A stretch of 64,000 nt of DNA from the NCBI GenBank assembly GCA_963662235.1, contig OY759308.1:1078109-1142108 (forward strand). Direction: 5' to 3'. The stretch is from Desulfobacterales bacterium. GTDB taxonomy: Bacteria > Desulfobacterota > Desulfobacteria > Desulfobacterales > G963662235. Positions within the stretch are counted from its first letter, which is position 1. The number at the start of each line of letters is the position of its first letter. Positions 1 through 59,420 of the stretch are shown piece after piece. The notes under the pieces were generated by a model. The model saw only the letters and a program-made list of their open reading frames with translations, was not told the origin of the DNA and ran no database searches. Both the position numbers and the translations under genes were made by a program.

Positions 1-1185
1 GCTCTTGCTCATAACAGCGGACACACTCTATCTGTTGTTTATAGTGGGGCACAAATTTTATCGACTTCAACTTCAAACAAACTTAAAATAAACTTTAATG
101 GTGATAAGCAATCAGACGGGACAACTCTTGCAGAACAGCTTGTTATAGACTTGCCACAAGCTATGACTACAGGAGAAACTATAAAATTTGACTGTGTCCC
201 AAGTGGAATGGTTGGGTATGAAAATGCTTCAATTGCAACAGCAGATAACGGTAAAACTATAAATGTATATTTAAATCAAGATGATGAAACAAACAAATTA
301 GATCCTAATATAATTTATAAGTTAAACTCAACAGGTACTGTTACTAATGGCGACAAATTTCAATTTACAATAGATCCTTCAAATAGTGGTACTGCTACAC
401 CAACTAACTATACTAATGCAAAAGTAAGTTCTTATGTTATTGAAAGTAAAGAGTATGTTAAAATAGACCTTGATGGTACAGGGCGTAATGATGATGTTAT
501 TTTTGAATTTGATATTAACGCACAAGGTGGTTCAGGAATTGGTTATGTAGCTGAATCTTCAAGTAAAACAGATATTATAAACTCGTATATGAATTTTGAT
601 ATATCGGGTTCTACAGCTTGGAAAACTCTGTCTACAAATGATGATGGTTATTTTGAAATACCTGTAGATTTTCTCGGTGGTGCAGCAGGTTCAACAAAGA
701 GCAGTATTGCTCTCGATTTAGGTGGTCAATATAGTACTTCAAAAGTTTGGAGCACAACTGAAAGAACTACAACACAATATGGTTCCAGTTTTGCTACAAC
801 ATATCTTGAAGTGGACGGTTATGGTGTAGGTGAATATGAAAGTGTGTCTATATCATCTGATGGTACAGTTGTTGGAAAATATTCAAATGGACAAAATACA
901 CCTCTTTTTAAAATTCCTGTAGCAAGATTTTTAAATCCGAATGGTTTATCAAAAGAGGGTAGCAACCTTTATGTTGCGACAATAGAAAGTGGTGCAGCTC
1001 TTTTCAATACTGCAGGGTCAAATGGTAGTGGCTCGATTGTTTCAAACTCTATAGAAAACTCCAACGTTGACATAGCAGAAGAGTTTATCACTATGATTAC
1101 AACTCAAAGAGGTTTCCAAGCAAACTCAAAAATTGTAACTGCTGCCGACACTATGATGGAAACCGTCCTCAATATGAAACGATAA
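1..1185 (+). CDS. flgE: flagellar hook protein FlgE, C-terminal part (5' end upstream of window)
   Basis: Frame 1 is open from base 1 to the stop at 1183-1185, so the track start at 151 is an internal TTG. The C-terminus ITMITTQRGFQANSKIVTAADTMMETVLNMKR matches the conserved C-terminal helix of flagellar hook/rod proteins. The Thr/Ser/Gly-rich middle is typical of FlgE. Confidence 0.75.
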   Translation, partial: ALAHNSGHTLSVVYSGAQILSTSTSNKLKINFNGDKQSDGTTLAEQLVIDLPQAMTTGETIKFDCVPSGMVGYENASIATADNGKTINVYLNQDDETNKLDPNIIYKLNSTGTVTNGDKFQFTIDPSNSGTATPTNYTNAKVSSYVIESKEYVKIDLDGTGRNDDVIFEFDINAQGGSGIGYVAESSSKTDIINSYMNFDISGSTAWKTLSTNDDGYFEIPVDFLGGAAGSTKSSIALDLGGQYSTSKVWSTTERTTTQYGSSFATTYLEVDGYGVGEYESVSISSDGTVVGKYSNGQNTPLFKIPVARFLNPNGLSKEGSNLYVATIESGAALFNTAGSNGSGSIVSNSIENSNVDIAEEFITMITTQRGFQANSKIVTAADTMMETVLNMKR

Positions 1186-1499: not shown

Positions 1500-1559
1500 T
1501 ATCTTAAAAAAATCCTGTATACTTCGACTTTGCTCAGCATTACACTGCTATTTCGCGCA

Positions 1560-1719
1560 GAGCCTGTCGGTGCCTGAGCCTGTCGGTGCCTGAGCCTGTC
1601 GGTGCCTGAGCCTGTCGGTGCTTGAGCCTGTCGGTGTCTGAGCCTGTCGGTGTCTGAGCCTGTCGGTGTCTGAGCCTGTCGGTGCCTGAGCCTGTCGGTG
1701 CCTGAGCTTGTCGAAGGCA
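1560..1719. repeat. 16-bp GC-rich tandem repeat, 9 full units plus 1 degenerate
   Basis: GAGCCTGTCGGTGYYT repeated head to tail. Unit variants in order: gcct x3, gctt, gtct x3, gcct x2, then degenerate gagcttgtcgaaggca. Confidence 0.95.
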
Positions 1720-1904
1720 CAACCACTCCGTGCAGCATTGTAAAGATTAACCATTGCGCTGATAAATTTTAAGAATTTATATTTAAAAAGACAGCACATA
1801 TAGGAAGAGTTTTTGACTTAAAAAAATCAAAATGGTTAAAAGTGCTTGTTTATAAAATCCAAACTATTAAATAATATATTGCCTTTAGAACACGATACAA
1901 TGGA

Positions 1905-2100
1905 GAGACCTTTGCACATAATGTTTTTTATGAAAAAAATAGTGGTTTTTTGTAAATTATCAACTTTTGGTAATTTTACAAAAACAGCTAAAACCCTTAT
2001 GAAGACTAACGCTCTCTTTTGCTTTTGTTTTGGGTTCGACGTATAAAAATACTACTTCACCACAAAACAAAAGCAAAATAGAGCTATGTGCAAAGGTCTC
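1905..2100. mobile_element. MITE copy A (196 bp), TSD AATGGA
   Basis: Inverted ends gagacctttgcacat / atgtgcaaaggtctc. The 6-mer AATGGA is identical at 1899-1904 and 2101-2106. No ORF of its own. Confidence 0.85.
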
Positions 2101-5225: not shown

Positions 5226-6299
5226 CTATTTATCAAGTGAAGCTTCTAAGTTTTTGACTTGATAGTGAGCAGTTAGCTCATCAATTATATGCTCTATGTC
5301 TCCTTCAAGAATATTTTCAAGTTTGTATAGCGTAAGTCCTATTCTATGGTCGGTAACTCTACCTTGAGGGAAGTTGTATGTTCTTATTCGTCCACTTCTA
5401 TCACCAGTTCCTACTTGTTCTTTTCTTTCGGCGGCTCTTTCTTGTTCTTGCTCTTGAGTAATTTTGTCATAAATTCTGGCTTTTAGAACTTTCATAGCCT
5501 TTTCTTTATTTTTCAGTTGAGATTTTTGGTCTTGACAAGTAGCGATTGTTCCAGTCGGGATATGAGTAAGACGAACAGCAGAATCGGTTGTGTTAACACT
5601 TTGACCACCGGGTCCAGTAGCTCTATAAACATCTACTTTAATATCGGCTTGATTAATTTCAAGCTCTATATCTTCAGCTTCTGGCAGAACAGCTACCGTT
5701 ACAGCTGAAGTGTGAATTCTTCCTTGAGTTTCGGTTGTAGGAACTCTTTGTACTCTATGTGTTCCGCTTTCAAACTTTAATTTGCCAAAAACAGAAGAGC
5801 CACTAATTAAGACAATAATCTCTTTTATTCCGCCTATACCGCTAATGTAATGGCTACTTAACACTTCAGTCTTCCACGATTTATTTTCTGCATATTTTGA
5901 ATACATTCTAAATAAATCGCTGGCAAAAAGTGCTGCTTCATCGCCACCAGTACCGGCTCTTATTTCAAGAATAACGTTGTTTCCATCTTTGGGGTCTTTA
6001 GGGATAAGAAGTTTTTTGAGTTTTTTGTTAATCTCTTCTTTTTCTATTTTAAGGTTTTCCAGCTCTTCTTTTGCAAGCTTTTGTATCTCTTTATCTTGAT
6101 CTTCTAAAAGTTCTAATGAGTCTTCGATATTTTCAAGTACTGTCTTATATTGTCTAAAGTTTTCAACAATTTTAGATATGCTTTTATGCTCTTTTAAAAG
6201 CTTTTGGTATTTGTTTATATTGTTAATAACATTTGGATCGCTTATCTCTTTTTCAATATCCTTAAATCTTGCTTCTATTTTTTCTAATTTTTCTATCAT
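5226..6299 (-). CDS. prfA: peptide chain release factor 1
   Basis: [14 protein letters not shown] (RF1 PxT-type loop) and GPGGQSVN (GGQ motif); 357 aa. Confidence 0.95.
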
Positions 6300-6641: not shown

Positions 6642-7898
6642 TTATCTTTTTTGAGGGTTCATTAAGTTTAAAAACTCATCATTATCTTTTGTGCCAGACA
6701 TTTTATCAAGTAAAAAATTAACAGCATCGACTGGATTCATATCTGAAAGAACTTTTCTTAATATCCATATTCTATCAAGTTTTTCTTGGTCTACTAATAA
6801 CTCTTCTTTTCTTGTCCCAGATCTGCTCATTTCTATAGCTGGATAGATTCTTCTATCTGAAAGTTTTCTATTTAGAACAAGCTCCATATTACCAGTACCT
6901 TTAAACTCTTCAAAGATAACTTCATCCATACGACTACCTGTTTCTATTAAAGCGGTTGCAATAATAGTAAGACTACCGCCATCTTCTACATTTCTTGCAG
7001 CCCCTAAAAATCTTTTGGGTTTATGGAGAGCGTTTGAATCTACACCACCAGATAAAACTTTACCGCTTGCAGGAGAGATAGAGTTATAAGCTCTTGCAAG
7101 TCTTGTTATGCTATCAAGTAAAATAACAACATCTTTTTTATGCTCTACAAGTCTTTTGGCTTTTTCTATAGCCATATCTGCTACTTGTACGTGTCTTTCT
7201 GCTGGCTCATCAAATGTAGAGCTCATTACTTCCGCATTAACAGAACGAATCATATCTGTAACTTCTTCTGGTCGTTCATCTATTAAAAGAATAAATGGTA
7301 CAACGTTGCTATTATTTTTTATAATCGTATTGGCAATATTTTGAAGAAGCATCGTTTTACCAGTCTTAGGAGGAGATACTATAAGTCCTCTTTGACCAAA
7401 ACCGATAGGAGCAAATAAGTCTAATATTCGTATAGAATAGTTATCTGGGTTTGTTTTAAGATTGATTTTTTCGTTGGGATATAAGGGGGTAAGGTTGTCA
7501 AAAAATATTCTGTTTCTTGCTATTTCAGGGTCTTCATAATTAATCGCTTCTACCTTTAAAAGAGCAAAATATTTTTCACCCTCTTTAGGTTGCCTAATTT
7601 GTCCTGATATAATATCACCTTTTTTCAAATTAAACCTGCGAATTTGAGATGGTGATACATAAATATCATCAGGTCCTGGCAAGTAGCTATAAGAAGCAGA
7701 TCTCAAAAAACCAAAACCGTCTGGTAAAACTTCTAAAACTCCTTCCCCAAACACAAAACCATCTTTTTCTATTTGTGCTTGCAAGACTGCAAAAATAAGT
7801 TCTTGTTTTCTTAAACCTCCACACCCTTCAATTTTAAGTTTTTTAGCAAGTTTAACAAGTTCATCAATCTTCATATTTTTAAGGTCAGTAATATTCAT
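6642..7898 (-). CDS. rho: transcription termination factor Rho
   Basis: Rho N-terminal and cold-shock-like domain (GFGFLR), Walker A PPKTGKT, RecA-like core, 418 aa. Confidence 0.95.
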
Positions 7899-8159: not shown

Positions 8160-8354
8160 GAGACCTTTGTACATAGCTCTATTTTGTTTTTATTTTGTGG
8201 TGAAGTAGTATTTTTATACGTCAAACCCAAAATAAAAGCAAAAGAGAGCGTTAGTTCTTATAGGAATTTAGAAGTTTTTTTTAAATTATTAAAATTTAAT
8301 ATTTTGCTTAAAACTACTATTTTTTTTCATAAAAATGTTATGTGCAAAGGTCTC
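8160..8354. mobile_element. MITE copy B (195 bp, inverted relative to copy A), TSD ATTTGT/AATTGT
   Basis: Same inverted ends and internal sequence as 1905-2100 in reverse complement. Flanking 6-mers match 5/6. Confidence 0.85.
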
Positions 8355-9238: not shown

Positions 9239-9339
9239 TAAAGCTTTGCACATAATGTTTTTTATGAAAAAAATAGTGGTTTTTTATAAAACATTAACTT
9301 TAAAACAAAAGCAAAATTTAAGCTATGTGTAAAGGTATC
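9239..9339. mobile_element. internally deleted MITE copy C (~100 bp)
   Basis: agctttgcacataatgttttttatgaaaaaaatagtgg ... aaaacaaaagcaaaatttaagctatgtgtaaaggtatc. Both ends are retained and the centre is missing. Confidence 0.75.
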
Positions 9340-10835: not shown

Positions 10836-13800
10836 TTATTTTTTTCTTAAACAAACTATGGCAGCTGTTGTGCTAAGAGGTAAAAATTCTCCTGCTTCTG
10901 TAATGCCTATGCCTATTTTGTTTGCTTTTAATAATTTATATATCACTTTATTGTTTTTTATACTGAGTGCAGAATATCCGGGACTGTATCTTGAAGTTAA
11001 TTTTTTGTCCAAACTTTTTTTTGCTATTTTTTGATGAAGAAAATTTGCCATATCTTCTGCGATTCTATTTGAAATTCCTGTAAGCATAAATGAAGCTTCA
11101 TTATCTAATCTATTTTTAATCTCTTTATTTGGTATGCCTGCTCTTGATATGAGAAAACCTACTATATCTTTTTTCTTTTTTTTTTTAGGTAAAAAATAGG
11201 AAGAGATGTAGTAATATTCTTTTTTATCTTTTGATATTAACTTTTTAAAAGAGATTTTTTCTATCTCTTCGTTTGTTCCGGGTTTATAAATTATCAAATC
11301 TTTGCCATCAGAATTACATTCAAAAAAGGCTATTTTACCGACAGCGTTTGTAATGTTCTCTTTTTTAGCCATTTCTATCCATTCTGATAGCTCTTCTTTA
11401 GGGAGTATTTTTTTTAATTTCCAATTTATGGAGTGCAGAGCTTTTATATTTAAATTTTCAATATTCCACTCTTTTTTTACAGTTTCTATCTTAAAATTTA
11501 AGTTGGGTAGCTTTTTATCGTTTAGTTTTATAGCTCTTTTTTTTAAAGGTAGAATCTCCTTTTTTTTCTCTTTTACTTTTTTGTAAATTTCGGTCAGCTC
11601 TTTTTTGTTTTTTTCTAAAACTTCTTCTTTTTTGTTTGAATTAAGTTTTTCTAAAACGTTTATTCCATCCATTGAAGAAGCACAATAAAACACATTCGAT
11701 TTTATTTCTTTAACGCTCTCTTTACCAGCCATAGCGACATCGACAGCAAAATTTTTATTGATAGGTGCACCACCAATTAAAATTGGGATATCTATATTTT
11801 CTTTACTCATAATTTCAGAAACTGTGAGCATATGGCTTGCAGTCTGAACAAGCAGGGCACTCATTCCTATAGCATCAGCTTTGCTTTTTTTTATTGTGCT
11901 TACAAAAGTTTCAGGTTCAATCTGTACTCCAAGGTCTATAACTTCATAGTTGTAATTTTCAAAAAGTGTTTTTGTTAAATCTTTTCCTATGCTGTGTACA
12001 TCTTGATATACTGTGCCTAAAACGATAAGACCTCTTTTTTTTTTTAGTTTTCGTCCCTCTTTTTTTTGCATATAATTTTCTATAAATTCCATAGAATATT
12101 TCATTAAATCTGCCGATTTTAGAAGATGAGGCAAAGAGACTTTACCTTCTGCAAAGTCATCTCCTATATCTTTCATAGCAGGTATTAAATATTCATTTAT
12201 AAGTTCAAGAGGTTTTAGTTCTTTTAAAGCTTCGGCAACATCAAGTACAATTTTATCTTCATAATTAAAGCTTAAGTTGTCTACTTTAACTTTCCCTTTT
12301 TGATGCTCTTTTCTTGCTTCTTTTATTTTGTTATATATTTTTTCTTTTACGGTAAGTTTTTCATAAGATACGGTTTTTTTCTTAATTCCGACTTTTTTTT
12401 CTGCAATCTCTTCAAGCTTTTCAAATGCTGTCATATCTTTTTTCAATATTATTTGTTGTCCAAGCTTGTAATCTTTTTTATCTATACTCTCTACTGGTAC
12501 ATAATGCGAAGGGTTAACAATAGCGGCATCTAATCCCAGTTTTTTTCCTTCATCTAAAAATACAGAAGTTAAAACTAATCTCATATAAGCTTTTCTCGCT
12601 AAGCCATTTGTAAGGTTTCCAACACCTATTATGGTTTTAATTTTATGATTAAGTTTTTTTATACCTTTTATTGACTTTAAAGATTCTAAGGCAAAATTCT
12701 CTTCTTTATTTGTTTCAGAACCGATAGGAAAAGCATTTATATCGACAAAAAGTTGAGCTGGAGTGACACCATATTTTTTACACTCTTTGATAGATTTTTC
12801 GGCTATCTCAATTTTTTTTGCACAAGTTTTAGCAGGACCTTCTTCATCGGCAAGCATAATAACATAATAAGGAGAGTGGCAGGCTGTTTGTTTTAAAACG
12901 ATATCAATTTTACTCTCTTTTTTATCGATTTTTTCGATTGATACCGAATTGATTATTGGTTTACCGGGATATTTTTTTACAGCTTCTATTAAACTTTGAG
13001 TTTCAAAAGAGTCTATTGAAAGAGCACCGTCAAAATCTATGCATAAATTATAAATAACATCGCCAAGTGTTTTTTGTGTATTTACGATATTTGAATCCAT
13101 ACAAACATCTAATACTTTTAATCCCAACTCTTTTGTCTGGTTGCTTGCTACTTTTTCCAAAGCATTAAAGTCAACTTTTGTTTCAAGCTCTACAGCTTGT
13201 TTAACTATTTTTGAACCGCGTACATTAAGTCTTTCACCTATTCTTATGATATCTTTTGTACTATCAAGAGAGACTCTTTCTTGAGGACCAGAAATAAACT
13301 CTTTATCGCTAACCTCTCTTTTTTTAGGCTTAATGTCTTTTACAGCAGAGGCGAGTTCTTTTATGTGTGTTGGATTAGTTCCACAGCAACCACCTACGAT
13401 GTTTATACCATATTTTGTTATGTAATTTTTGAGATATTTTGTAAAAACTTTTGGTGCTATATCGTAAACAGGTATGCCTTGTTTTAAAATAGGCATTCCT
13501 GCATTTGGCAAAACCGATATTGGAAGTTTTGAATATAGTGATAGCTTTTTTATAGCATCTTCCATTAACTCAGGGCCAAGAGAGCAATTAATTCCTAACG
13601 TATCAATTCCTATATCAGAAAGAGTTGTAATTACAGACTCTATTTTTGTACCAAAAATTTGCATTCTCGAAAATTCATCAACGGTCACTTGAGCCATAAT
13701 AGGAATCTTTTTCTTACTCTCTCTTATAGCTTCTTGTGCTCCAAAAATTCCTGCTTTAAGTTCTAAAACGTCTTGTTGAGTTTCAAAGAGAAGAACATCA

Positions 13801-14369: not shown

Positions 14370-15617
14370 TTATAATTTTTCAGCTATCTTTTTTCCTGTT
14401 TCAAAAAGGGCTTTAATACTTTGTTTGTCAGGTACAAATAGAACTTTTTGAGGTTCTGATACTATCTCAAAATTTGCTTCCTTTAACGATTCTTCAATAA
14501 TTTTTATAGACTCTCCGCTCCAACCATAAGAACCAAAAGCTACTCCTTTTTTACCTTTTGGTTTCAAACCTTTCATATAAGTTAAAAAGTCGGCAACTTT
14601 TGGAAGTATACCGTTGTTTAAGGTGGGGCAACCAAGAATTAAAGCTTTTGAATCTAAAAGCTCTGTAATAATATCGCTCCTATGATGCTCACCAAGTTTT
14701 AAAAGTTTAACATTTATTTTCCCTGATGCTGCAATTCCTTTTGCTATCTCTTTTGCCATCTTTTCTGTACTGTGCCACATAGTATCATAAACAACGAGTG
14801 CTTTGTTTAAACTCTCTTGTCTGCTCCATTTTTCATATAGAGACACAATTTTATTTATATCTTTCTCTTTTCTAAATAAAAATCCGTGATCTGGACAAAT
14901 CATTTTTATTTTTAAGTCCATCTCTTTTATCTTTTCTAAAAGTTTTAAAACCTGTTTTGAAAAAAGGAGTAAAATATTGGCAAAATATTTTTTACCTTGT
15001 GTAAATGCAGCGTGTCCCTCTTCATCGGAAAAAAGCTTAAAACTTGCATAGTGTTGTCCAAAAGCATCACTTGAGAAAAGAATTTGATCTTCTTTTATAT
15101 AAGTAAACATACTGTCCGGCCAATGAAGCATTTTAGTTTCTAAAAAGCTTAATGTTTTTCCGCCTATATCAAGAGTATCATTACTTTTTACAACCTTATA
15201 ATTATAATTTCCAAAATGAGCTTTAAGATTTCTCTCTCCAGCAGGGGAGCAGTAGATAGGTTTATCTTTGCCAATAAGGTGCATAATACGTGGTATAGAA
15301 CCAGAATGGTCCATTTCTGTATGGTTGCTTATTAAAATATCAATTTTTTTTGGATCAATTATTTTTGAAATATTATCAATAAACTCTTTTGAAAACCTTG
15401 CTTTTACAGTGTCTATCAAAACCGTTTTTTCTTTCCCGATTATAAGAAAAGCGTTGTAAGTTGAACCGTAATCGGTTGAATAACCGTGAAAATCTCTAAT
15501 GTTCCAATCAATTACTCCCACCTGATAAATATTTTCTGCTATTTGATTATTGTCCATTTCTTCCTCTCTATTTGAGATTTTTGTACATACTGTTTTTTCG
15601 TGAGTTTTTTTTACCAT
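14370..15617 (-). CDS. flavodiiron protein (FprA, A-type flavoprotein)
   Basis: Metallo-beta-lactamase motif SNHTEMDHSG plus a C-terminal flavodoxin-like domain. The true start may be the ATG at 15557 (MDNNQIAENIYQVG). Confidence 0.85.
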   Translation of the reverse strand: MVKKTHEKTVCTKISNREEEMDNNQIAENIYQVGVIDWNIRDFHGYSTDYGSTYNAFLIIGKEKTVLIDTVKARFSKEFIDNISKIIDPKKIDILISNHTEMDHSGSIPRIMHLIGKDKPIYCSPAGERNLKAHFGNYNYKVVKSNDTLDIGGKTLSFLETKMLHWPDSMFTYIKEDQILFSSDAFGQHYASFKLFSDEEGHAAFTQGKKYFANILLLFSKQVLKLLEKIKEMDLKIKMICPDHGFLFRKEKDINKIVSLYEKWSRQESLNKALVVYDTMWHSTEKMAKEIAKGIAASGKINVKLLKLGEHHRSDIITELLDSKALILGCPTLNNGILPKVADFLTYMKGLKPKGKKGVAFGSYGWSGESIKIIEESLKEANFEIVSEPQKVLFVPDKQSIKALFETGKKIAEKL

Positions 15618-15768
15618 TTCCCCCTTTTGTAGAGAACGGTTTTAAACCGTTCCTCGAAATAATTTTAAATTTAGAAAATTTAAAATTATTTCGAGGTAAA
15701 GGGGGTTCGCCGCAAGGCATTTCCCCCTTTTAAGGGGGATTAAGGGGGGTTCGCCGCAAGGCGAAAAA
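15617..15768. repeat. ~150-bp composite G/C-word hairpin module
   Basis: Chain of palindromes (gaacggttttaaaccgttc; cgaaataattttaaattt/aaatttaaaattatttcg; ccccttttaaggggg; ttcgccgcaaggcgaa). Second copy at 59421-59566. Confidence 0.85.
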
Positions 15769-15773
15769 CCTCT

Positions 15774-16623: not shown

Positions 16624-17261
16624 CGTAGGGCGGGGAGACCCCGCCCCTACGGTTATGATTGCGTGATAAAAATTAAAAAAATCGCAAAAAATTTAATAGA
16701 AACGATGTAGGGGCGTATTGATATACGCCCATTAAACAATGCAATTATAATCAAAAATAATTATTTGGGCACGGCACGCCGTGCCCACGGTGTTGTGTCC
16801 ATACAATAATGCAAACACCAATATAAAAAATGAAAATGTTGTAAGGGCAAAATACGCTTATCCCCAACGCAAAACAAATCATATTGAAACAGTAAAAAAT
16901 TATATTAAAATGATTGAATATCGTAGGGGCGAGACCAAACCCGCCCAATATTATTTTCAAACCGTGTAGAGACAGGTCGCGACCTGTCTCTACGGTGAAA
17001 AAATGTTTTTATGAAATTTGTTTCGTTACGCAAAAAACATTTACGATTTTTTTTTAGCATTATTTGGTTTATCCCGCCCAATATATTGTGTTGTTTTTTA
17101 TGTAGGGGCGTATAGCCATACGCCCATTAAACAATGCAATCATAATCAAAAACAATTATCTGGGCACGGCGTGCCGTGCCCATCTTGCAATTTCATATTG
17201 GTTTAATTAAATGCCGTAGAAATGCAAAATATTACAGAGACGCAAAATCTTGCGTCTCTAC
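16624..17261. repeat. cluster of 8 REP-like nested hairpins in the cobB-ftsK spacer
   Basis: Hairpins at 16625-16650, 16707-16730, 16767-16786, 16923-16946, 16966-16993, 17102-17125, 17162-17181 and 17234-17261. An ~85-bp unit at 16701-16786 is duplicated at 17096-17181. Confidence 0.85.
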
Positions 17262-19453: not shown

Positions 19454-19504
19454 GAGACCTTTACACATATTTTTTTCATAAAAAACATTATGTGCAAAGG
19501 TCTC
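19454..19504. repeat. 51-bp mini-MITE hairpin between lysA stop and ftsK start
   Basis: gagacctttacacat...atgtgcaaaggtctc, i.e. the two MITE ends joined. Confidence 0.85.
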
Positions 19505-20783: not shown

Positions 20784-22343
20784 TTATCCATTGCTTTTAG
20801 AGAGCTTTGCACATAGCTCTATTTTAGCATTTTTTTTTGCAAGTTCAACCCCTGGTTGATCAAAAGGGTTTATGTTTAGAATAAAAGCGTAAAAGACAAC
20901 TTGGGCTTCATAAAAAGCTACAAGAGCTCCTATACTTTCAGGAGATATCTCTTTTATTCTTATGGTTGAAGATGGTCTGTTTCCTTCAAATTTCCTGCCA
21001 TCTCCAAAGGCAAGAGTTTCTGCTTGTGCTGTCATATTGGCTTCTATTCTTTTATTAACCTCTATATCTTTTGAAAAAGGTTTTTTTGTACTTATAAAAT
21101 CTATAGGGAAGGGGAGACCTTGATGAGCCATCTGCATAAAAGAGTGCTGTGCATTGAGCCCAGAATCTCCAAATAGTACATAACCCTCTTGCTCTTTTAA
21201 CTTCTTATCGGTGTTGTCAAATCCTTTTCCAAGACTTTCCATCACGAGTTGCGCTATATGAGGCACAAACTCTTTTAAAACATAAGGATATGGCAAAATG
21301 GCTTTAGCTTTATACCCTAAAATTTTAACGTTCCATATATCAATAAGTGCAGAAATAAGGGCAGGGTTTTTTTCTATTGGAGCATTTAAGATATATTTAT
21401 CTATCGCTTCGGCTCCTTTTAAAAATTTTTTAAAATTTTCAAACCCTAAATAAAGGCTTAAAGGCACTCCACTACTTGCAGAAGAGAGGCTAAATCGTCC
21501 GCCTACAAAATCGAACATATTAAAAGCTTTCAGCCTTTTTGAAACTTTTTCTTTTCTAATTTTTCCTTTTGAACTTATCGAAACTATATGCTTTTTGGCA
21601 TCTAATCCATTTGTTTTTAAAAGTTTTTCAACTCTTTCCTCGTTTAAAAGTGTTTCCATCGTGCTATTGCTTTTGGAAACAACAATCCAAACACTTTCAT
21701 CTAAGCTTATTTTTTGAATTATAGTGTTAAAGAGAGTGTCATCTATATTGTGCAAAAAATGGATATTCATATTTTGCTTTTTAAAGCCCTCAAGTGCTTT
21801 TGAAACAAATAGAGTTCCAGAACTTGAACCGCCAATGCCAACTACGATAATATCAGAAATTTTTTTACCATTTGAGCCTTTTAACTTTCCGCTAATTATA
21901 TCGTTTGAAAAATTTTCTATATTTTTAAGCTCTTCTTTAATCTCTAAGTAATAGTCATCTTTTTTTGAGCTATCGAAAGAGCGAAGTGCAGTGTGAAGTG
22001 CGGCTCTATTTTCTGAAAAATTTATCTTTTCGCCATTATACATAGAGACAAATTTCTCTTTTGCTTTACTCTCTTTCGATAAATCAAAAAGGAGCTTTAA
22101 TATAGAGCTATCTACTCTCTGTTTTGAAAAGTCACAAAAGAGTAGGTCTTTTGCATTTATTTTTAACTCTTCTTCTCTTTTGGTATCTTCTAAAAGGTTT
22201 TTAAGGTGGTTTTCTTTTTTATCTATATCTACTTTTTTTTTCTTTAATTCTTTAAATATTTTGCTTTCCACTTTTTTATTTTCCTTAAAATTTTTTGTTT
22301 TTTCAGAAACAACGGCTTTTATCATATGATAAAAAATATACAA
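20784..22343 (-). CDS. pgi: glucose-6-phosphate isomerase
   Basis: ENRAALHTALR, GIGGSSSG, and SKSNSTMETL (SKSGxTxET-type motif). The last residues are encoded by a solo MITE end. Confidence 0.9.
   Translation of the reverse strand: MYIFYHMIKAVVSEKTKNFKENKKVESKIFKELKKKKVDIDKKENHLKNLLEDTKREEELKINAKDLLFCDFSKQRVDSSILKLLFDLSKESKAKEKFVSMYNGEKINFSENRAALHTALRSFDSSKKDDYYLEIKEELKNIENFSNDIISGKLKGSNGKKISDIIVVGIGGSSSGTLFVSKALEGFKKQNMNIHFLHNIDDTLFNTIIQKISLDESVWIVVSKSNSTMETLLNEERVEKLLKTNGLDAKKHIVSISSKGKIRKEKVSKRLKAFNMFDFVGGRFSLSSASSGVPLSLYLGFENFKKFLKGAEAIDKYILNAPIEKNPALISALIDIWNVKILGYKAKAILPYPYVLKEFVPHIAQLVMESLGKGFDNTDKKLKEQEGYVLFGDSGLNAQHSFMQMAHQGLPFPIDFISTKKPFSKDIEVNKRIEANMTAQAETLAFGDGRKFEGNRPSSTIRIKEISPESIGALVAFYEAQVVFYAFILNINPFDQPGVELAKKNAKIELCAKLSKSNG
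20800..20826. repeat. solo MITE end inside the pgi 3' end
   Basis: gagagctttgcacatagctctatttta matches the MITE terminus. No partner end nearby. Confidence 0.7.
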
Positions 22344-22400: not shown

Positions 22401-22930
22401 ATGACAAATAAAATACCTTTAGAACATCCTGGAATTATTTTAAAATAAGAATGAGAGCTTTGCACATAGCTCTATTTTGGAATATTTTTGTGGTGTAGTA
22501 GTATATTAATACGTCAAACCCAAAAATATTGCAAAAGAGAGCGTAACTCTTTATAGGGTTTTTTTTAAGTTTTTGTGAAATTATCAAAAGTTGATATTTT
22601 ATTAAAAACTACTATTTTTTTATAAAAAAACATTATGTGCAAAGTTCTCAAGAATTTATAGAGCAATTGGGGACAACTGTTTATACAGTATCAAAAAGAA
22701 CAGGTATTTCGCAAACAGCTCTTAGTGAAATAATAAAAGGAAAAAGAAATATTTCACCAACAAACGCTTTAAAATTGTCAAAATTCTTTGGTGTTTCAGA
22801 CTGTTTTTTCATCAATATTCAAACTAAGTATAATTTAGATTTGGCAAAAGAAAAAAACAAGCAACCTCTTTCAAAAATAACTCCTTTTGAAATAATGAGT
22901 GCAAACAGAGAAAAAATATTGAAACTTTAG
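22401..22930 (+). pseudogene. higA: higA-type XRE antitoxin gene interrupted by a MITE
   Basis: The 15-codon N-terminal piece MTNKIPLEHPGIILK* (22401-22448) and the HTH body from 22650 are in the same frame once the MITE and one TSD copy (203 bp) are removed. An in-frame TAA remains at 22446. No higB nearby. Confidence 0.7.
22453..22649. mobile_element. MITE copy F (197 bp), TSD AAGAAT
   Basis: Ends gagagctttgcacat / atgtgcaaagttctc. AAGAAT at 22447-22452 and 22650-22655. Confidence 0.85.
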
Positions 22931-23033: not shown

Positions 23034-23048
23034 GTATCACATTTCACA

Positions 23049-28603: not shown

Positions 28604-28612
28604 AAATCTCTA

Positions 28613-29965
28613 TTGAGTTTGAATATGGTTAATACAAATAACGATACCAATGTCTATTCAGTTTCAAAACTTGTTCAAGAAGTTCAAGTGTTGTTAGAAG
28701 AGAAATTTTCAATCGTTTGGATATATGGCGAAATCTCAAATTTATTCGTTGCAGTTTCTGGACACTCTTACTTTACGCTTAAAGATGAAGAATCTCAAAT
28801 AAGTTCTATTATTTTCAAGAGGCAAAACTTAAAGTTAAATTTTAAACTTGAAAATGGGCTTCAAATTATAGGGCTTGCAAGAATTAGTGTCTATAAACCT
28901 AAAGGAGCTTATCAATTAGTTTTTGAAAATATAGAACCTTACGGTATAGGTTCAGCACAACTCCATTTTGAACAAACAAAAAAAAAGCTTCAAGGAAAAG
29001 GCTATTTCGACGAACAACACAAAAAAAAATTACCCTATATCCCTTCCTCTATAGCCATTATAACTTCTATTTCTGGGAGTGTAATTTACGATTTTGTTGA
29101 TGTCGTTTTTAGAAGGTTTTCAGGTGTTTCTATCAAAGTGGTTGATGCAAGAGTTCAGGGGGAAGGTGCTGATAGAGATATTGCAAGCTCTATTAAGCTT
29201 ATAAATGAGCAAAAGCTTGCTGATGTTATTGTTCTTGCAAGGGGTGGAGGGTCGATTGAAGATTTGTCGCAGTTTAATTCAGAAACTCTTGCAGATGCTA
29301 TATTTTTGTCAAACATTCCAATCGTTTCTGCCATAGGGCACGAAACCGATTTTACAATTTCAGATTTTGTCAGCGATATAAGAGCAGGAACACCATCTAT
29401 TGCTGGAGAAATTGTTGTGCCTGACAAAAAATATATAAAAGAAAAAATAGCTTCTATAAATTCAAACCTTGCTTCTATTATGTTCGGGATTCTTGAAAAA
29501 AGAAAAAATAGAGTAAAAGAGCTTCAAAGCAAGTTGGTTTATAGACCGATTAAAACTGATAGTTTTAAGATTCGTTTGGACGATTTAACAGCAAGATTAA
29601 GTAGCTCAATTAAAAATAGAGTAAGAGAGTTAAAATATAACAATGAAACTTTAAAATTAAAAATTTTTAAATCTTATCCTAATTTAAAAGAGTTTAGGTT
29701 TAAGATTAAAGACTTAAAGTCCAATTTACTATTTTTAATTAAAAAAAGAGTGAATTTTGTAAAAGAGAGACAAACATTTTTTGAAACGAAAATTAATGCC
29801 CTAAATCCAACAGGTATTCTTCAAAGAGGTTATGCTATTACCAAAAAAGAAGATAAAGTTATAAGAGATGTAGATGAAGTAAGTGTAGGCGATGTTTTAG
29901 ATATAATGCTTGCTAAAGGTCGCTTAAAGTGTAAGGTAGAAAAAACGTACAAAACCAGAAAGTAA
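28613..29965 (+). CDS. xseA: exodeoxyribonuclease VII large subunit
   Basis: OB-fold N-terminus (VWIYGEISN...SGHSYFTLKD), catalytic core (ARGGGSIEDL, GHETD), coiled C-terminus. Alternative start at 28625. Confidence 0.9.
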   Translation: MSLNMVNTNNDTNVYSVSKLVQEVQVLLEEKFSIVWIYGEISNLFVAVSGHSYFTLKDEESQISSIIFKRQNLKLNFKLENGLQIIGLARISVYKPKGAYQLVFENIEPYGIGSAQLHFEQTKKKLQGKGYFDEQHKKKLPYIPSSIAIITSISGSVIYDFVDVVFRRFSGVSIKVVDARVQGEGADRDIASSIKLINEQKLADVIVLARGGGSIEDLSQFNSETLADAIFLSNIPIVSAIGHETDFTISDFVSDIRAGTPSIAGEIVVPDKKYIKEKIASINSNLASIMFGILEKRKNRVKELQSKLVYRPIKTDSFKIRLDDLTARLSSSIKNRVRELKYNNETLKLKIFKSYPNLKEFRFKIKDLKSNLLFLIKKRVNFVKERQTFFETKINALNPTGILQRGYAITKKEDKVIRDVDEVSVGDVLDIMLAKGRLKCKVEKTYKTRK

Positions 29966-41957: not shown

Positions 41958-41980
41958 AATTATAAATATATCCTAATTTG

Positions 41981-45039: not shown

Positions 45040-45187
45040 ATTTTAAAATTAAAAATTAAAGAAGTTAAGAGCAATATAAATTGTTTTATTTCAAACAATT
45101 AAAAAAATGCAAAATAAGTTTGTATCACTATTTTTAAAAAAAAAGTATTGCTAAATAAAACAACTTTTATCAAACATAAAATTTTTA

Positions 45188-45249
45188 AAAACCTTTGTAC
45201 ACACCTCACTACTATTTTCTTTATAAAAAACATTATGTGCAAAGGTCTC
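45188..45249. repeat. mini-MITE (62 bp) 14 nt upstream of smpB
   Basis: aaacctttgtacac...cattatgtgcaaaggtctc. Confidence 0.75.
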
Positions 45250-46127: not shown

Positions 46128-46323
46128 GAGACCTTTGCACATAGCTCTATTTTGTAATATTTTTGTGGTGCAGTAGTATATTAATACGTCAAACCCAAAA
46201 ATATTGCAAAAGAGAGCGTAAGTCTTTATAGGGATTTTAGAGGTTTTTGAAAAAATTATTAAAAGTTAATATTTTTTTCAAAACCACTATTTTTCTATAA
46301 AAAACATTATGTGCAAAGGTCTC
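46128..46323. mobile_element. MITE copy H (196 bp), TSD AGTGAG
   Basis: AGTGAG at 46122-46127 and 46324-46329. Full inverted ends. Confidence 0.85.
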
Positions 46324-46337
46324 AGTGAGATATTTGT

Positions 46338-46364
46338 GAGAGCTTTGCATATAGCTCTCTTTTG
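46338..46364. repeat. solo MITE end just after the hsdR stop
   Basis: gagagctttgcatatagctctctttt. Confidence 0.65.
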
Positions 46365-46373
46365 TACATTTTC

Positions 46374-53397: not shown

Positions 53398-53451
53398 GAG
53401 ACCTTTGTGCATACTATTTTTTTATAAAAAAACATTGTGTGCGAAGGTCTC
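53398..53451. repeat. 54-bp mini-MITE hairpin between mreC stop and the TPR gene start
   Basis: gagacctttgtgcat...gtgtgcgaaggtctc. Confidence 0.8.
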
Positions 53452-54278: not shown

Positions 54279-54315
54279 GAGACCTTTGCACATATAAAGC
54301 TATGTGCAAAGGTCT
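54279..54315. repeat. 37-bp mini-MITE hairpin between mreB stop and mreC start
   Basis: gagacctttgcacatataaagctatgtgcaaaggtct. Confidence 0.8.
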
Positions 54316-54317
54316 AA

Positions 54318-56382: not shown

Positions 56383-57134
56383 TTTGTTCTGTCTCCTTTA
56401 TAGTCTATGTTTAAGAGAGTTAAACCATAAGGCGGAGCACACTCTTTATTTTTTTTATTATCTTTTGAGTCAAAAATGGTTTTAAACTCTTCAAGTGAAA
56501 TTTTGTTTAAACCTATACTTACAAAAGCACCTACAAGATTTCTTACCATATATCTTAAAAAACCGTTGCCACATATCTCAAAAAATATGTGGTTTCCGTT
56601 TCTTTTAAACTCTGCTTTATAAATTGTGCGTATACTATTTTTTACGGAAGAACCAGATTTTTGAAAAGATGCAAAATCGTGTGTGCCAATTATTAAATTT
56701 GCAGCTTCCTGCATTTTTTCTAAATCGAGCTTTTTTTCTATATGCCATAAATATTTTCGATTAATAGCTATAGGAGTTTCTTGATTGATGATTGAATATA
56801 AATAGGTTTTTTTATAAACTAAAAACCTTGAATGGAATTTATCGTTTTCTATTGAAACATCTTTTATGACAATATCGTCTGGGGTAAGAGAGTTTAAACC
56901 TTTTAAAAAGTTTATCTCTTTTAAATCTGTTTTTATATCAAAGTGTGCCACTTGATTTTTAGCATGTACACCAGCATCAGTTCTTCCTGCACCGCTTATA
57001 ATGATTTTTTGAGATGTTATTTTATAGAGTGCATTTTCAATTTCACCCTGAACAGTTCTTTTGTCATTTTGTCTCTGCCATCCAGAATAGTTGGTGCCAT
57101 CGTACTCTATTACTATCTTAAATCGTTTTGTCAT
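56367..57134 (-). CDS. truA: tRNA pseudouridine(38-40) synthase
   Basis: FKIVIEYDGTNYSGWQRQ and GAGRTDAGVHA (catalytic Asp). The track start at 57209 is MITE-derived, so the ATG at 57134 is preferred. Confidence 0.9.
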   Translation of the reverse strand: MTKRFKIVIEYDGTNYSGWQRQNDKRTVQGEIENALYKITSQKIIISGAGRTDAGVHAKNQVAHFDIKTDLKEINFLKGLNSLTPDDIVIKDVSIENDKFHSRFLVYKKTYLYSIINQETPIAINRKYLWHIEKKLDLEKMQEAANLIIGTHDFASFQKSGSSVKNSIRTIYKAEFKRNGNHIFFEICGNGFLRYMVRNLVGAFVSIGLNKISLEEFKTIFDSKDNKKNKECAPPYGLTLLNIDYKGDRTKCYPF

Positions 57135-57138
57135 TGTA

Positions 57139-57205
57139 AGACCTTTGCACATAATGTTTTTTATGAAATACACATAATGTTTTTTATGAAAAAATATGTG
57201 GTTAT
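57139..57205. repeat. solo MITE end with internal duplication (cacataatgttttttatgaaa x2)
   Basis: agacctttgcacataatgttttttatgaaatacacataatgttttttatgaaaaaatatgtgg. Lies between rmuC stop and truA start. Confidence 0.75.
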
Positions 57206-58419
57206 TCAAAATCTTCTATAAATTTTTGAGGTATCTCTTTTTTAGATTGTACACCAAGTTTTTTTAAACTTTCAACTTTACTTATTAAATTGCCACGACC
57301 TTCCGATATCTTTTTTTTGGTGTCGCTATAAGATTTTTCAGCTTTACTGATATATGTTCCTACTTCATCAAAAGATTGTATAAATCCTACAAATTTATCG
57401 TAAAGCAAACCCGCTTCATTTGCTATTTTTAAAGCGTTTTTGTTTTGTTTATCTAAATCCCACAAATTGTTTATTGTTTTTAAAATGGGCAGGAGAGTAG
57501 AAGGGCTTACAAGTGCGATATTGTTTTTAAATGCAAAATCAAAAATAGAGTTTTCGTCTAATAATAAGGAAAAAGCAGATTCTATCGGTATAAACATAAA
57601 GACAAAACCCAAGCCTGCTATATCGGGGAGGTCTTCGTATCTTTTACTTGATAACTCTTCAATATGTTTTTTGACAGCCTTGAAATAGTCCTTAAGTTTT
57701 TCGTTTTGATTCTCTTTGTCTTCTGAAAGATAGTAGTTTTCATAAGGGACGAGAGAGACTTTTGAATCTATGATGGCGTATCTTTTATTTGGGAGATTAA
57801 CAACGACATCGGGCTGATACGATTTCCCTGCTTCATTTTTTAAAGAGAGTTGTCTATTATATTCAAGCCCTTCTCTCAAACCTGAAATTTCAAGAACTCT
57901 TTCTAAAACAAGCTCTCCCCAATTTCCTCTTTTTTTACTGTCTCTTTTTAATGCATTTGTAAGGTCGTTTGCTTCTTTGGATATTTTTTCATTTAAATCT
58001 TTTAAATTTTTTAACTCGTTTAAAATATTTGTTCTGCCTTCGGTATCTTTATTATAAACCTCATCTACTCTTTTTCTGAAGCTCTCTATATTCTCTTTTA
58101 CAGGTAAGAGCACTTTATCTATCTTCTCTGTACTTTCTCTATCAAACTTGTTTGTTTTTTCTTCTAAAATTTTATTGGCAAGATTTTCAAAGACTTCTTT
58201 AATGTTACTGTTGGTTTGGTTTAAAAAGTTTATTTTGTCTTCACTACTTTTTTCTCTCTCTTTTAATAAACTCTCTTTTTCTCGTAAATTGCTTTCAAGA
58301 TTTAATATCAATTCTCTCTTTTTTTCTATCTCTCTTTTAAGTTTTTTGTTTAAAAAGAACAGGAGTGTAACTAATAAGAGTAAGGCAGTTATAGCTATAA
58401 CTATTATTGTATTTTCCAT
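57202..58419 (-). CDS. rmuC: DNA recombination protein RmuC
   Basis: N-terminal TM and coiled coil. RGNWGELVLERVLEISGLREGLEY signature. Confidence 0.85.
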   Translation of the reverse strand: MENTIIVIAITALLLLVTLLFFLNKKLKREIEKKRELILNLESNLREKESLLKEREKSSEDKINFLNQTNSNIKEVFENLANKILEEKTNKFDRESTEKIDKVLLPVKENIESFRKRVDEVYNKDTEGRTNILNELKNLKDLNEKISKEANDLTNALKRDSKKRGNWGELVLERVLEISGLREGLEYNRQLSLKNEAGKSYQPDVVVNLPNKRYAIIDSKVSLVPYENYYLSEDKENQNEKLKDYFKAVKKHIEELSSKRYEDLPDIAGLGFVFMFIPIESAFSLLLDENSIFDFAFKNNIALVSPSTLLPILKTINNLWDLDKQNKNALKIANEAGLLYDKFVGFIQSFDEVGTYISKAEKSYSDTKKKISEGRGNLISKVESLKKLGVQSKKEIPQKFIEDFE

Positions 58420-58426
58420 TTATATT

Positions 58427-58570
58427 GGACCTTTGCACATAATGTTTTTTTGTCTATTCCTTCAAGGGGGGAAGGAGGGTTTGCCGAAAGGCGAAAAACC
58501 TCAAAAAATCCTTATAAAGACTTACGCTCTCTTTTGCAATGTTTTTGGGTTTGACGTATAAATATACTAT
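58427..58570. repeat. chimeric MITE: left end + G/C-word hairpins + MITE interior, right end missing
   Basis: ggacctttgcacataatg... ccttcaaggggggaagg ... ttgccgaaaggcgaaaaacctc ... acgctctcttttgcaatgtttttgggtttgacgtataaatatactat. Confidence 0.7.
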
Positions 58571-59410: not shown

Positions 59411-59420
59411 TTTTCTTACG

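What the first reader, a model, noticed from the sequence alone, without database searches (positions are those of the whole stretch)
1905..2100. Non-autonomous ~196-bp MITE family with GAGACCTTTGCACAT inverted ends and 6-bp target-site duplications
There are four full-length copies, each with its flanking 6-mers: 1905-2100 (AATGGA/AATGGA), 8160-8354 (ATTTGT/AATTGT, inverted), 22453-22649 (AAGAAT/AAGAAT) and 46128-46323 (AGTGAG/AGTGAG). Three perfect duplications and one 5/6 duplication argue for real transposition rather than a conserved regulatory region. Derivatives include a centre-deleted 100-bp copy (9239-9339) and end-to-end mini hairpins (19454-19504, 45188-45249, 53398-53451, 54279-54315). 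There are also solo ends (20800-20826, 46338-46364, 57139-57205) and a chimera (58427-58570). That makes 13 copies or fragments in 64 kb, with no internal ORF and no transposase gene in the window. I cannot match the ends to an IS family from memory.
Basis: seen in the sequence. Interest (0 to 1): 0.65.

Follow-up and report, generated by a model that had tools for sequence, protein, structure and literature searches.

The report
Active IS5-type MITE family, 6-bp duplications
The repeats are a real family of about 196-bp non-coding "hitch-hiker" transposons that have moved recently, because a sister strain has clean empty sites; their ends match a known class of IS5-family insertion sequences, so this is a new example of a familiar kind of element.

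Summary
The end motif GAGACCTTTGCACAT (up to 2 mismatches) occurs 20 times against 0.1 expected. There are four copies of 195-197 bp and nine derivatives, together 1,379 bp or 2.2% of the window. Three full copies have perfect 6-bp flanking duplications and one has 5/6 (chance of three perfect about 4e-9).

The MITE reading is supported and I could extend it.
- A second strain, about 98% identical, gives precise filled-versus-empty sites. Window copy 22453 is absent there, with one AAGAAT at the site. The other strain has a full copy, a 2.5-copy tandem array and two 61-nt mini copies at sites that are empty in the window.
- The ends match the published IS5-family terminal repeats (ISPg1, ISPg4, ISNme1).
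- The same 15-mer ends IS5-type elements in Flavobacteriales. Four related insertion sequences with complete ends make 5-bp duplications, not 6.

No transposase lies in the window or in about 85 kb of the sister strain, so the parent element is unidentified.

A few coordinates are off by one.

Verdict: a new member of a known kind, of modest interest.

The parts
1905..2100 (+). Full-length copy (196 bp), the reference orientation. TSD is AATGGA (1899-1904 and 2101-2106). Its right end abuts the start of a small gene that precedes a ParE-toxin gene.
   Evidence: Shared with the sister strain with the same TSD (L100 14238-14433).
8160..8354 (-). Full-length copy (195 bp). TSD is ATTTGT/AATTGT (5/6). 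It lies upstream of rho (6642-7898, minus strand).
   Evidence: Shared with the sister strain (L100 7945-8140).
9239..9339 (+). Centre-deleted copy (101 bp): left end (profile positions 4-63) joined to right end (161-196).
   Evidence: Shared with the sister strain (L100 6998-7057).
19454..19504 (-). Mini copy (51 bp) made of the two ends only; a perfect 16-bp hairpin. Flanks are TTTCTT/TTTTTT (5/6). The sister strain has a different remnant (a solo right end) at the same site.
   Evidence: d; -24.1 kcal/mol, z -9.2.
20800..20839 (-). Solo right end (40 bp), lying inside the last codons of the pgi ORF.
   Evidence: The orthologous fragment lies in the sister strain's pgi 3' end (L101 13545-13583).
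22453..22649 (-). Full-length copy (197 bp). TSD is AAGAAT. It is window-specific and is inserted after about codon 17 of a 108-aa HTH_3 gene that is intact in the sister strain.
   Evidence:(a). The sister strain has a precise empty site with one AAGAAT.
45129..45134 (.). Empty target site TATTTT. The sister strain carries a full copy here (L099 3032-3228) flanked by TATTTT/TATTTT. The window has one extra T after the site.
45188..45249 (-). Mini copy (62 bp) with a decayed right end, upstream of smpB.
46128..46323 (-). Full-length copy (196 bp). TSD is AGTGAG. It lies between hsdR and the RNase P RNA gene (45714-46059, minus strand). In the sister strain only one hybrid right end remains at this place.
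46338..46367 (-). Solo right end (30 bp), 14 bp from the full copy at 46128. It is in direct orientation with that copy's right end.
53398..53451 (-). Mini copy (54 bp) that fills the spacer between mreC and the downstream TPR gene. Its end variant is GAGACCTTTGTGCAT.
   Evidence: Shared with the sister strain (L102 10818-10874).
54279..54316 (+). Mini copy (38 bp) with a perfect 6-bp TSD (ATTATT). It fills the mreB-mreC spacer and forms a 15-bp perfect hairpin.
   Evidence: -24 kcal/mol, z -8.6.
57138..57211 (+). Left-end fragment with an internal 23-nt tandem duplication, between rmuC and a pseudouridine synthase gene.
   Evidence: (D7).
58426..58570 (+). Copy with a different GC-rich repeat nested after its left end. 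In the window it is truncated at 58570, where similarity to the sister strain stops. The sister strain has the complete version (L102 5446-5703).
28611..28616 (.). Empty target site TATTGA. The sister strain carries a head-to-tail array here of one centre-deleted and two full copies (L101 5154-5650), flanked by TATTAA/TATTGA.
   Evidence:(b).
56399..56404 (.). Empty target site TATAGT. The sister strain carries two tandem 61-nt mini copies here (L102 about 7734-7873), flanked by TATAAT/TATAGT.
   Evidence:(c).

Best explanation
This is a family of miniature inverted-repeat transposable elements (MITEs), non-coding and about 196 bp long.

**Anatomy.** Each copy has 15-16-bp terminal inverted repeats (GAGACCTTTGCACAT) and two internal AT-rich hairpins.

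**Proposed mechanism.**
- A DDE transposase encoded elsewhere moves the copies in trans. It is most likely from an IS5-family element of the clade with a DUF772 N-terminal domain and a DDE_Tnp_1 catalytic domain, whose ends read GAGACC-NNN-TGCA.
- The transposase would bind both ends and insert the element at AT-rich sites through a 6-bp staggered cut. Repair of that cut gives the 6-bp duplication.

**After insertion.**
- Copies decay by internal deletion into centre-deleted, mini (38-62 bp, ends only) and solo-end forms.
- Copies recombine with one another, and some sit at strain-specific breakpoints.
- At least some mini forms appear to insert on their own.

**Shown versus inferred.**
- Inferred: which transposase acts, the transposition chemistry, and any effect on neighbouring genes.
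For: **Family and duplications.**
- 20 end motifs against 0.1 expected.
- Four copies align over their full length.
- The perfect 6-bp duplications have a chance probability of about 4e-9.

**Mobility.** The sister strain is about 98% identical. Five sites differ in occupancy.
- Four of them have precise junctions and a single target copy on the empty side.
- The fifth, around window copy 46128, is best read as a deletion between two direct right ends.
- Copies that are shared keep the same duplications in both strains.

**IS5 link.**
- Published IS5-family ends are GAGACCATTGCA (ISPg1), GAGACTGTTGCA (ISPg4) and GAGACCTTTGCAAAA (ISNme1) (PMC4596501).
- In Flavobacteriales MAG-57 the 15-mer, exact or with one mismatch, starts an element whose first ORF is the N-terminus of an IS5-family transposase.
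- Complete IS5-family elements carry GAGACC..TGCA ends and clean flanking duplications. They come from Capnocytophaga pCC7, Solidesulfovibrio, Desulfolutivibrio and one Logan contig. The Capnocytophaga transposase matches NCBIfam NF033581.
- An unrelated bacterium (Brevinematales NS) has an independent MITE of about 200 bp with the same ends and 5-bp duplications.

**Both ends co-vary.** The variant GCACAT to GTGCAT occurs at both ends of the same copy. That fits ends read by one protein.
Against: - No transposase of any kind was found in the window or in about 85 kb of the sister strain.
- Searches of the protein collection did not return an IS5 transposase from this genome. The parent is therefore unidentified.
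- The four related IS5-family elements with readable flanks, and the Brevinematales MITE, make 5-bp duplications. This family makes 6 bp.
- Beyond the terminal 15-17 nt there is no similarity to the ends of any IS that I could read. There is also no internal similarity to the Brevinematales MITE.
Confidence: 0.78

Rival explanations
1. It is a MITE, but a transposase of another family moves it. Candidates, recalled from ISfinder, are families reported to make 5-6-bp or variable duplications, such as IS1634, IS982 or IS4. In that case the resemblance of the ends to IS5-family ends would be convergent.
For: - The 6-bp duplication differs from the 5 bp of every IS5-type element with these ends that I could read.
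- No parent was found.
Against: - The match to IS5-family ends is long: the full 15-mer in Flavobacteriales MAG-57 and 12/15 in Solidesulfovibrio.
- The match recurs across phyla, always next to IS5-type transposases (PMC4596501).
- From my recollection of ISfinder, duplication length varies from 2 to 9 bp within the IS5 family.
Confidence: 0.17
2. It is a conserved structural or regulatory palindrome (REP/BIME-like, a terminator or an RNA-stability hairpin) that spreads by recombination or by a RAYT-type enzyme, not by DDE transposition.
For: - The element and its mini forms fold very stably (DNA z -11.3; mini RNA hairpins about -24 kcal/mol).
- Mini forms fill short spacers inside operons such as mreB-mreC.
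- Internal hairpin 2 keeps its pairing through compensatory changes at four pairs.
Against: - REP-type elements do not create target duplications. Here 6-bp duplications flank full and mini copies, and the empty sites carry exactly one copy of the target.
- One copy interrupts a coding sequence.
- No Rfam family reaches its threshold.
- Promoter-like and terminator-like sites are no more frequent than in shuffled sequence.
Confidence: 0.03
3. The repeats are assembly or duplication artefacts, or chance similarity in AT-rich DNA.
For: The window is AT-rich (about 31% G+C), which inflates low-complexity matches.
Against: - The 15-mer count is about 200 times the shuffle expectation.
- Copies differ from each other by 10-20%.
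- Shared copies are reproduced in an independent assembly.
Confidence: 0.01

Closest known systems
BrickBuilt and MITEPgRS/MITE464 of Porphyromonas gingivalis (Klein et al. 2015, PMC4596501), proposed to be mobilised by IS5-family ISPg1, ISPg4 or ISPg9
   Same: - Non-coding elements with 12-nt ends: GAGACCTTTGCA in intact BrickBuilt copies and GAGACTGTTGCA in MITEPgRS.
- Ends match IS5-family elements; no transposase remnant inside.
- Tens of copies; positions differ between strains.
   Different: - BrickBuilt carries an internal minisatellite and distinct leader and tail segments.
- Its flanking duplications are irregular (2, 4 and 5 nt).
- The family here is a compact 196 bp with two hairpins and regular 6-bp duplications.
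- It has many ends-only mini derivatives.
- I found no evidence of internal sequence homology.
ATR (AT-rich repeat) MITE of Neisseria meningitidis, with proposed parent ISNme1 (IS5 family), as cited in PMC4596501
   Same: - AT-rich MITE whose proposed parent has ends GAGACCTTTGCAAAA/TTTTGCAAAGGTCTC, the same first 12 nt as here.
- About 19 copies per genome.
- Often next to other repeat families, as seen here.
   Different: - I could not obtain the ATR sequence, so internal homology and duplication length are untested.
- Positions 13-15 of the end differ (AAA versus CAT).
IS5-family insertion sequences with GAGACC-NNN-TGCA ends (Capnocytophaga pCC7, Solidesulfovibrio pDCAR1 and Desulfolutivibrio p1 elements; the Capnocytophaga transposase matches NCBIfam NF033581)
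   Same: - The terminal repeat type is the same.
- AT-rich targets and short flanking duplications.
   Different: - These are autonomous, about 1.25-1.33 kb, and encode a 343-374-aa transposase.
- Their duplications are 5 bp, not 6.
- Their subterminal sequences are unrelated to the MITE.
Correia elements (CREE/NEMIS) of Neisseria
   Same: - A short, abundant, hairpin-forming MITE that sits next to genes and inside operons.
- It shows full-length and internally deleted size classes.
   Different: From memory, Correia ends are 26 nt and unrelated to these, and the elements duplicate TA. Here the duplication is 6 bp with no fixed sequence.

Membership tests
MITE (non-autonomous class II element) | Terminal inverted repeats | tested here: met
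   The 15-16-bp ends GAGACCTTTGCACAT(A) pair in all full copies.
MITE (non-autonomous class II element) | Flanking target-site duplication of fixed length | tested here: met
   - 6 bp: perfect in three of four window full copies, one sister-strain copy and one 38-bp mini copy.
- 5/6 in four others.
- Chance P of about 4e-9.
MITE (non-autonomous class II element) | Small, with no transposase coding capacity | tested here: met
   Copies are 195-197 bp. tblastn with IS5 transposases finds no remnant.
MITE (non-autonomous class II element) | Presence/absence polymorphism with precise empty sites | tested here: met
   Four sites have precise junctions between two strains about 98% identical.
MITE (non-autonomous class II element) | Autonomous partner with the same ends in the same genome | not testable with these tools
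   - The rest of the 2.13-Mb genome could not be read.
- No partner lies in 64 kb of the window plus about 85 kb of the sister strain.
- No partner is among the top hits of the protein searches.
IS5-family-derived MITE (as BrickBuilt, MITEPgRS, ATR) | Ends match those of IS5-family insertion sequences | tested here: met
   - The first 12 nt equal the ISNme1 and BrickBuilt ends and are within 1-2 nt of ISPg1 and ISPg4 (PMC4596501).
- The full 15-mer (exact, or with one mismatch at L031:5335) ends IS5-type elements in Flavobacteriales MAG-57.
IS5-family-derived MITE (as BrickBuilt, MITEPgRS, ATR) | Duplication length equal to that of the presumed parent | tested here: inconclusive
   Four related IS5-family elements and the Brevinematales MITE give 5 bp, whereas this family gives 6 bp. 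The actual parent is unknown.
IS5-family-derived MITE (as BrickBuilt, MITEPgRS, ATR) | Subterminal sequence shared with a specific parent IS | tested here: not met
   - Similarity to every IS that I could read stops after 15-17 nt.
- No match in plasmids or in JGI metagenome contigs.
IS630/Tc1-mariner-type MITE (for example Correia) | TA dinucleotide duplication | tested here: not met
   The duplications are 6 bp and variable in sequence.
REP/BIME elements mobilised by RAYT | Short imperfect palindromes without target duplication | tested here: not met
   Target duplications and single-copy empty sites are present.
Any Rfam RNA family | Covariance-model score at or above the gathering threshold | tested here: not met
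   Only RNase P RNA passes in the window. On the element the best score is 33 bits against a threshold of 55, on both strands, which is a generic hairpin match.

The most novel reading that the evidence does not exclude
The ends-only mini forms (38-62 bp, essentially two 15-nt ends joined by a short loop) may themselves be transposition substrates. That would put them among the smallest mobile DNA elements, to my knowledge. Their transposase would make 6-bp rather than 5-bp duplications, marking a distinct, still-active branch of the IS5 clade in an uncharacterised low-G+C bacterium. The element's conserved, co-varying internal hairpin and the hairpins placed inside operons could also have been co-opted to control mRNA processing or stability.
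Probability: 0.2. Interest if true: 0.55.

Novelty: new member of a known kind. Interest (0 to 1): 0.33.

Why it matters
- **A useful study pair.** It documents a dense (about one copy or fragment per 5 kb here), recently active MITE family in an undescribed small-genome, low-G+C bacterium. Its AlaRS is only about 60% identical to named Desulfobacterales. The two sequenced strains already differ at five insertion sites within 64 kb, which makes them a convenient natural system for studying MITE turnover.
- **Practical consequences for annotation.**
  - Copies interrupt or remodel genes: the N-terminus of an HTH_3 gene and the C-terminus of pgi.
  - The ATG or GTG inside the terminal repeat is picked up as a false start codon.
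  - Copies mark strain-specific breakpoints.
  - Such repeats also tend to fragment short-read assemblies.
- **Wider pattern.** The GAGACC..TGCA end type links MITEs in at least four phyla to one clade of IS5-family transposases.
- **Limit.** None of this changes what is known about how MITEs work.

Tried and rejected
- **Finding the parent IS.**
  - tblastn of two IS5 transposases against the window, the 95 pattern loci and the sister-strain loci found no parent in this organism.
  - A protein search with the 48-aa transposase N-terminus from MAG-57 gave only two fragments.
  - A profile search with six IS5 transposases listed 120 hits, none on the contigs of this genome (2,133,799, 1,604,105 or 250,519 bp).
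- **Collection scans.**
  - Both metagenome scans found nothing.
  - blastn of the element against plasmids found nothing.
- **Outward promoter idea.** I noticed TTGCAA-17-TATTAA in the right half, and the right end of all four window copies faces the start of a co-directional gene. However:
  - the consensus scan finds no more promoter-like sites than in shuffles;
  - the motif is weak in one subfamily;
  - one of the two extra sister-strain sites breaks the orientation pattern.
  I dropped it as unsupported.
- **Small RNA idea.** Only sub-threshold generic hairpin matches, on both strands.
- **Homology with the Brevinematales MITE.** Internal alignment is no better than shuffled sequence.
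- **Source organism.** The exact-protein look-ups returned no names. AlaRS homologues place it only loosely near Desulfobacterales.
- **Literature.** A search for ATR and ISNme1 details returned only the paper already in hand.

Full report
**1. The observation**

- **Motif count.** The end motif GAGACCTTTGCACAT, allowing two mismatches, occurs 20 times in the window. Dinucleotide-preserving shuffles give 0.10.
- **Full copies.** Four copies of 195-197 bp lie at the stated coordinates. A global alignment test shows that 8160, 22453 and 46128 are all inverted relative to 1905. Once oriented, the four align from end to end with 81% mean column identity.
- **Derivatives.** A profile built from them recovers nine further pieces:
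  - a centre-deleted copy (9239-9339);
  - four ends-only mini copies (19454-19504, 45188-45249, 53398-53451, 54279-54316);
  - two solo right ends (20800-20839, 46338-46367);
  - a left-end fragment with an internal 23-nt duplication (57138-57211);
  - a truncated composite (58426-58570).
- **Share of the window.** Together they make 1,379 bp, or 2.2%.

**2. Target-site duplications**

- The flanks of the full copies are AATGGA/AATGGA, ATTTGT/AATTGT, AAGAAT/AAGAAT and AGTGAG/AGTGAG.
- In this window two 6-mers 196 bp apart match perfectly with probability 0.001. Three or more perfect matches out of four has a probability of about 4e-9.
- The 38-bp mini copy at 54279-54316 also has a perfect 6-bp duplication, ATTATT.
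- The element ends are G...C, so the duplication cannot be extended into the element. It is 6 bp.

**3. Direct evidence of mobility**

Exact-protein look-ups led to a second assembly of the same species (ENA ERZ21862600, contigs of 1.6 Mb and 250 kb). Four loci from it (L099-L102) cover about 56 kb of the 64-kb window at roughly 97-99% nucleotide identity in most blocks. Occupancy differs at five places.

- **(a) Window copy 22453.** It is absent in the sister strain, which reads ...AAAAG AAGAAT TTATAGAG... with a single AAGAAT. The insertion lies after about codon 17 of a 108-aa HTH_3 gene that is intact in the sister strain. The window's remaining ORF (22637-22930) still holds the HTH_3 domain.
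- **(b) Sister-strain full copy (L099 3032-3228).** It is flanked by TATTTT/TATTTT, where the window has one TATTTT (45129-45134) followed by one extra T.
- **(c) Sister-strain array (L101 5154-5650).** This is a head-to-tail array of one centre-deleted and two full copies, flanked by TATTAA/TATTGA. The window has one TATTGA (28611-28616).
- **(d) Sister-strain mini copies (L102 about 7734-7873).** Two tandem 61-nt mini copies are flanked by TATAAT/TATAGT, where the window has one TATAGT (56399-56404).
- **(e) Window copy 46128 and its neighbour.** Around this copy and the neighbouring solo right end, the sister strain keeps only one hybrid right end. This is best read as a deletion between the two direct right ends.

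Further points:
- Copies shared by both strains (1905, 8160, 9239 and others) keep the same flanks.
- At 19454 the two strains hold different remnants at one site.
- Similarity between the strains stops inside or at a copy at window 58570 and at about 35789, so copies also mark rearrangement borders.

**4. Anatomy**

- As single-stranded DNA, the 196-nt element folds at -48.5 kcal/mol against -16.4 for shuffles (z -11.3).
- The consensus fold of seven non-orthologous copies has the paired ends, a small subterminal hairpin, hairpin 1 (alignment columns 41-83) and hairpin 2 (columns 109-183).
- Four pairs of hairpin 2 show changes on both sides that keep the pairing (121:170, 122:169, 124:167, 125:166). 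At 125:166 there are three pair types.
- Two pairs in the terminal repeats also co-vary: GCACAT becomes GTGCAT at both ends of the L101 copies.
- With seven related sequences and few independent events this is suggestive only. It shows that palindromic symmetry is maintained but not why.
- Mini copies fold as near-perfect hairpins of about -24 kcal/mol.
- No Rfam family reaches its threshold.
- Promoter-like and terminator-like sites are no more frequent than in shuffles.

**5. Which transposase**

- **Nothing local.** No transposase is present in the window.
  - tblastn with IS5 transposases finds nothing.
  - The Pfam annotations of the sister strain's genes across the shared regions list none.
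  - Pfam scans of the window ORFs tested find none.
  - tblastn of the roughly 85 kb of sister-strain loci also finds none.
Most hits were single chance matches, but three groups stood out.
  - Many copies in Brevinematales bacterium NS.
  - Matches at contig ends in a Flavobacteriales MAG (MAG-57) and in a Weeksellaceae MAG.
- **Flavobacteriales link.**
  - In MAG-57 the motif (one mismatch at L031:5335; exact in other copies) starts an element whose first ORF begins MSYKQTNISQMSFASYDVDRRTSKNKFFKEIDTLIDW.
  - tblastn of that fragment hits genes annotated as IS5-family transposases.
  - A related fragment carries PF05598.
- **Capnocytophaga canimorsus pCC7.** The hit is a complete 1.3-kb element with ends GAGACCTGTGCACGA...TCTTGCAAAGGACTC, flanked by CTAAT/CTAAT. 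Its transposase matches NCBIfam NF033581, IS5 family.
- **Other elements with GAGACC..TGCA ends and 5-bp duplications.**
  - Solidesulfovibrio pDCAR1: ATATC.
  - Desulfolutivibrio p1: ATATA.
  - A Logan contig: AAATA.
- **Literature.** A full-text search for GAGACCTTTGCA found Klein et al. 2015 (PMC4596501). Its Table 2 lists the same end type for:
  - ISPg1 (GAGACCATTGCA);
  - ISPg4 (GAGACTGTTGCA);
  - ISNme1 (GAGACCTTTGCAAAA);
  - the MITEs BrickBuilt and MITEPgRS.

  The same paper names ISNme1 as the proposed parent of the Neisseria ATR MITE.
- **Conclusion.** The ends therefore belong to a recognised, widely distributed clade of IS5-family elements.

**6. What does not fit**

- Every IS of that clade with readable flanks, and the Brevinematales MITE (9 of 10 copies read), make 5-bp duplications. 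This family makes 6 bp.
- Similarity to any IS that I could read ends after 15-17 nt.
- The Brevinematales MITE shares nothing internally.
- The parent could not be found.
  - Two protein searches returned no transposase on this genome's contigs.
  - Two metagenome scans and a plasmid search were empty.
- I therefore give high confidence to 'MITE' and moderately high confidence to 'mobilised by an IS5-family transposase'.

**7. Most likely mechanism**

- A DDE transposase supplied in trans binds the two 15-nt ends and inserts the element at AT-rich targets with a 6-bp stagger. The targets seen are AATGGA, AAGAAT, AGTGAG, TATTTT, TATTGA, TATAGT, ATTATT and ATTTGT.
- The strain-specific pair of 61-nt mini copies and the 38-bp copy with a perfect duplication suggest that the two ends alone suffice. 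In-situ deletion after insertion is not excluded.
- Later events are internal deletion, recombination between copies, tandem amplification, nesting with another repeat family, and short tandem duplications of the ends.
- Effects on genes are inferred only:
  - one interrupted HTH_3 gene;
  - the pgi C-terminus encoded by a solo end;
  - hairpins in operon spacers (mreB-mreC-TPR);
  - an ATG or GTG inside the terminal repeat that opens spurious ORFs (2086, 22637, 46309), the 2086 one also being the start called for the orthologous gene in the sister strain.

**8. Host**

- The window has about 31% G+C and encodes flagellar genes, methionine synthase (MetH), FtsK and AlaRS. The sister-strain gene calls add Rho and MreB/MreC.
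- Its AlaRS is 99% identical in the sister strain and 76% identical on one metagenome contig. It is about 60% identical to named Desulfobacterales and other Thermodesulfobacteriota.
- The 76% relative (L109) ends in two tandem GAGAGCTTTGCACAA units. This hints that a related element exists there.
- The taxonomic placement is tentative.

**9. Verdict**

- It is a new member of a known kind: an IS5-type MITE comparable with BrickBuilt, MITEPgRS and ATR.
- It has some attractive features: recent activity, very small derivatives, and 6-bp rather than 5-bp duplications.
- There is nothing that a specialist would find very surprising.

Noticed in passing
window 1528-1751: A G+C-rich 16-bp tandem repeat (GAGCCTGTCGGTGCCT, about 10 units) lies in an otherwise AT-rich region. 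The alignment to the sister strain breaks and overlaps inside the array, which suggests a different unit number.
   Followed up: partly
window 16764-17186, 23011-23038, 34234-34261, 34531-34558, 49633-49660: A family of G+C-rich palindromes (for example GGGGCACGGCACGCCGTGCCCC), with longer shared flanks at 16.6-17.3 kb, 22955-23037, 34253-34341 and 49555-49607. They look REP-like. Their nature was not examined.
   Followed up: no
window 15594-15772, 31206-31305, 58472-58502, 59398-59568; L101 about 11690-11960; L102 about 5600-5680: A second composite repeat family (GGGGGTTCGCCGAAAGGCGAAAAACCTC; TTTCCCCCTTTTAAGGGGGATTAAGGGGG). It is nested inside the MITE copy at 58426. In the sister strain it forms a strain-specific block fused to a MITE end, next to the HTH_3 gene.
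   Followed up: partly
window 41961-41977 versus L099 6396-8350: The sister strain carries a restriction-modification pair (RE_NgoPII plus a DNA_methylase-family protein, about 1.95 kb) that is absent from the window.
   Followed up: no
window 49592-49918 versus L102 14348-18890: The window has the type I restriction subunit hsdR (46374-49421) but lacks a 4.5-kb block present in the sister strain. That block holds hsdM, two ORFs without Pfam hits, and Fic and Bro-N genes. The window strain's type I system looks incomplete here.
   Followed up: no
L008-L080 (Brevinematales bacterium NS, CP053071.1): An independent MITE family of about 200 bp has ends GAGACCCTTGCACGG ... GAGACCTTTGCACATTCGTGCAAAGGTCTC, the right end doubled into a hairpin. 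It shows 5-bp duplications in 9 of 10 copies read and has no internal similarity to the window element.
   Followed up: partly
window 57138-57211; L099 about 14540-14600; L109 6557-6604: Short tandem duplications of MITE ends recur: 23 nt x2, 21 nt x3 and 24 nt x2, at three unrelated places, one of them in a more distant relative. The cause is unknown; slippage at the hairpin is a guess.
   Followed up: no
window 59691-61052 and 61344-64000: Two long ORFs (453 aa, and more than 885 aa running off the window) have no Pfam match. They lie in a segment with no nucleotide similarity to the sister-strain loci fetched.
   Followed up: no
window 1-1185 / L100 15063-19406: The flagellar hook protein gene (FlgE-type domains) encodes 1,447 aa in the sister strain, which to my knowledge is unusually long for FlgE.
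   Followed up: no
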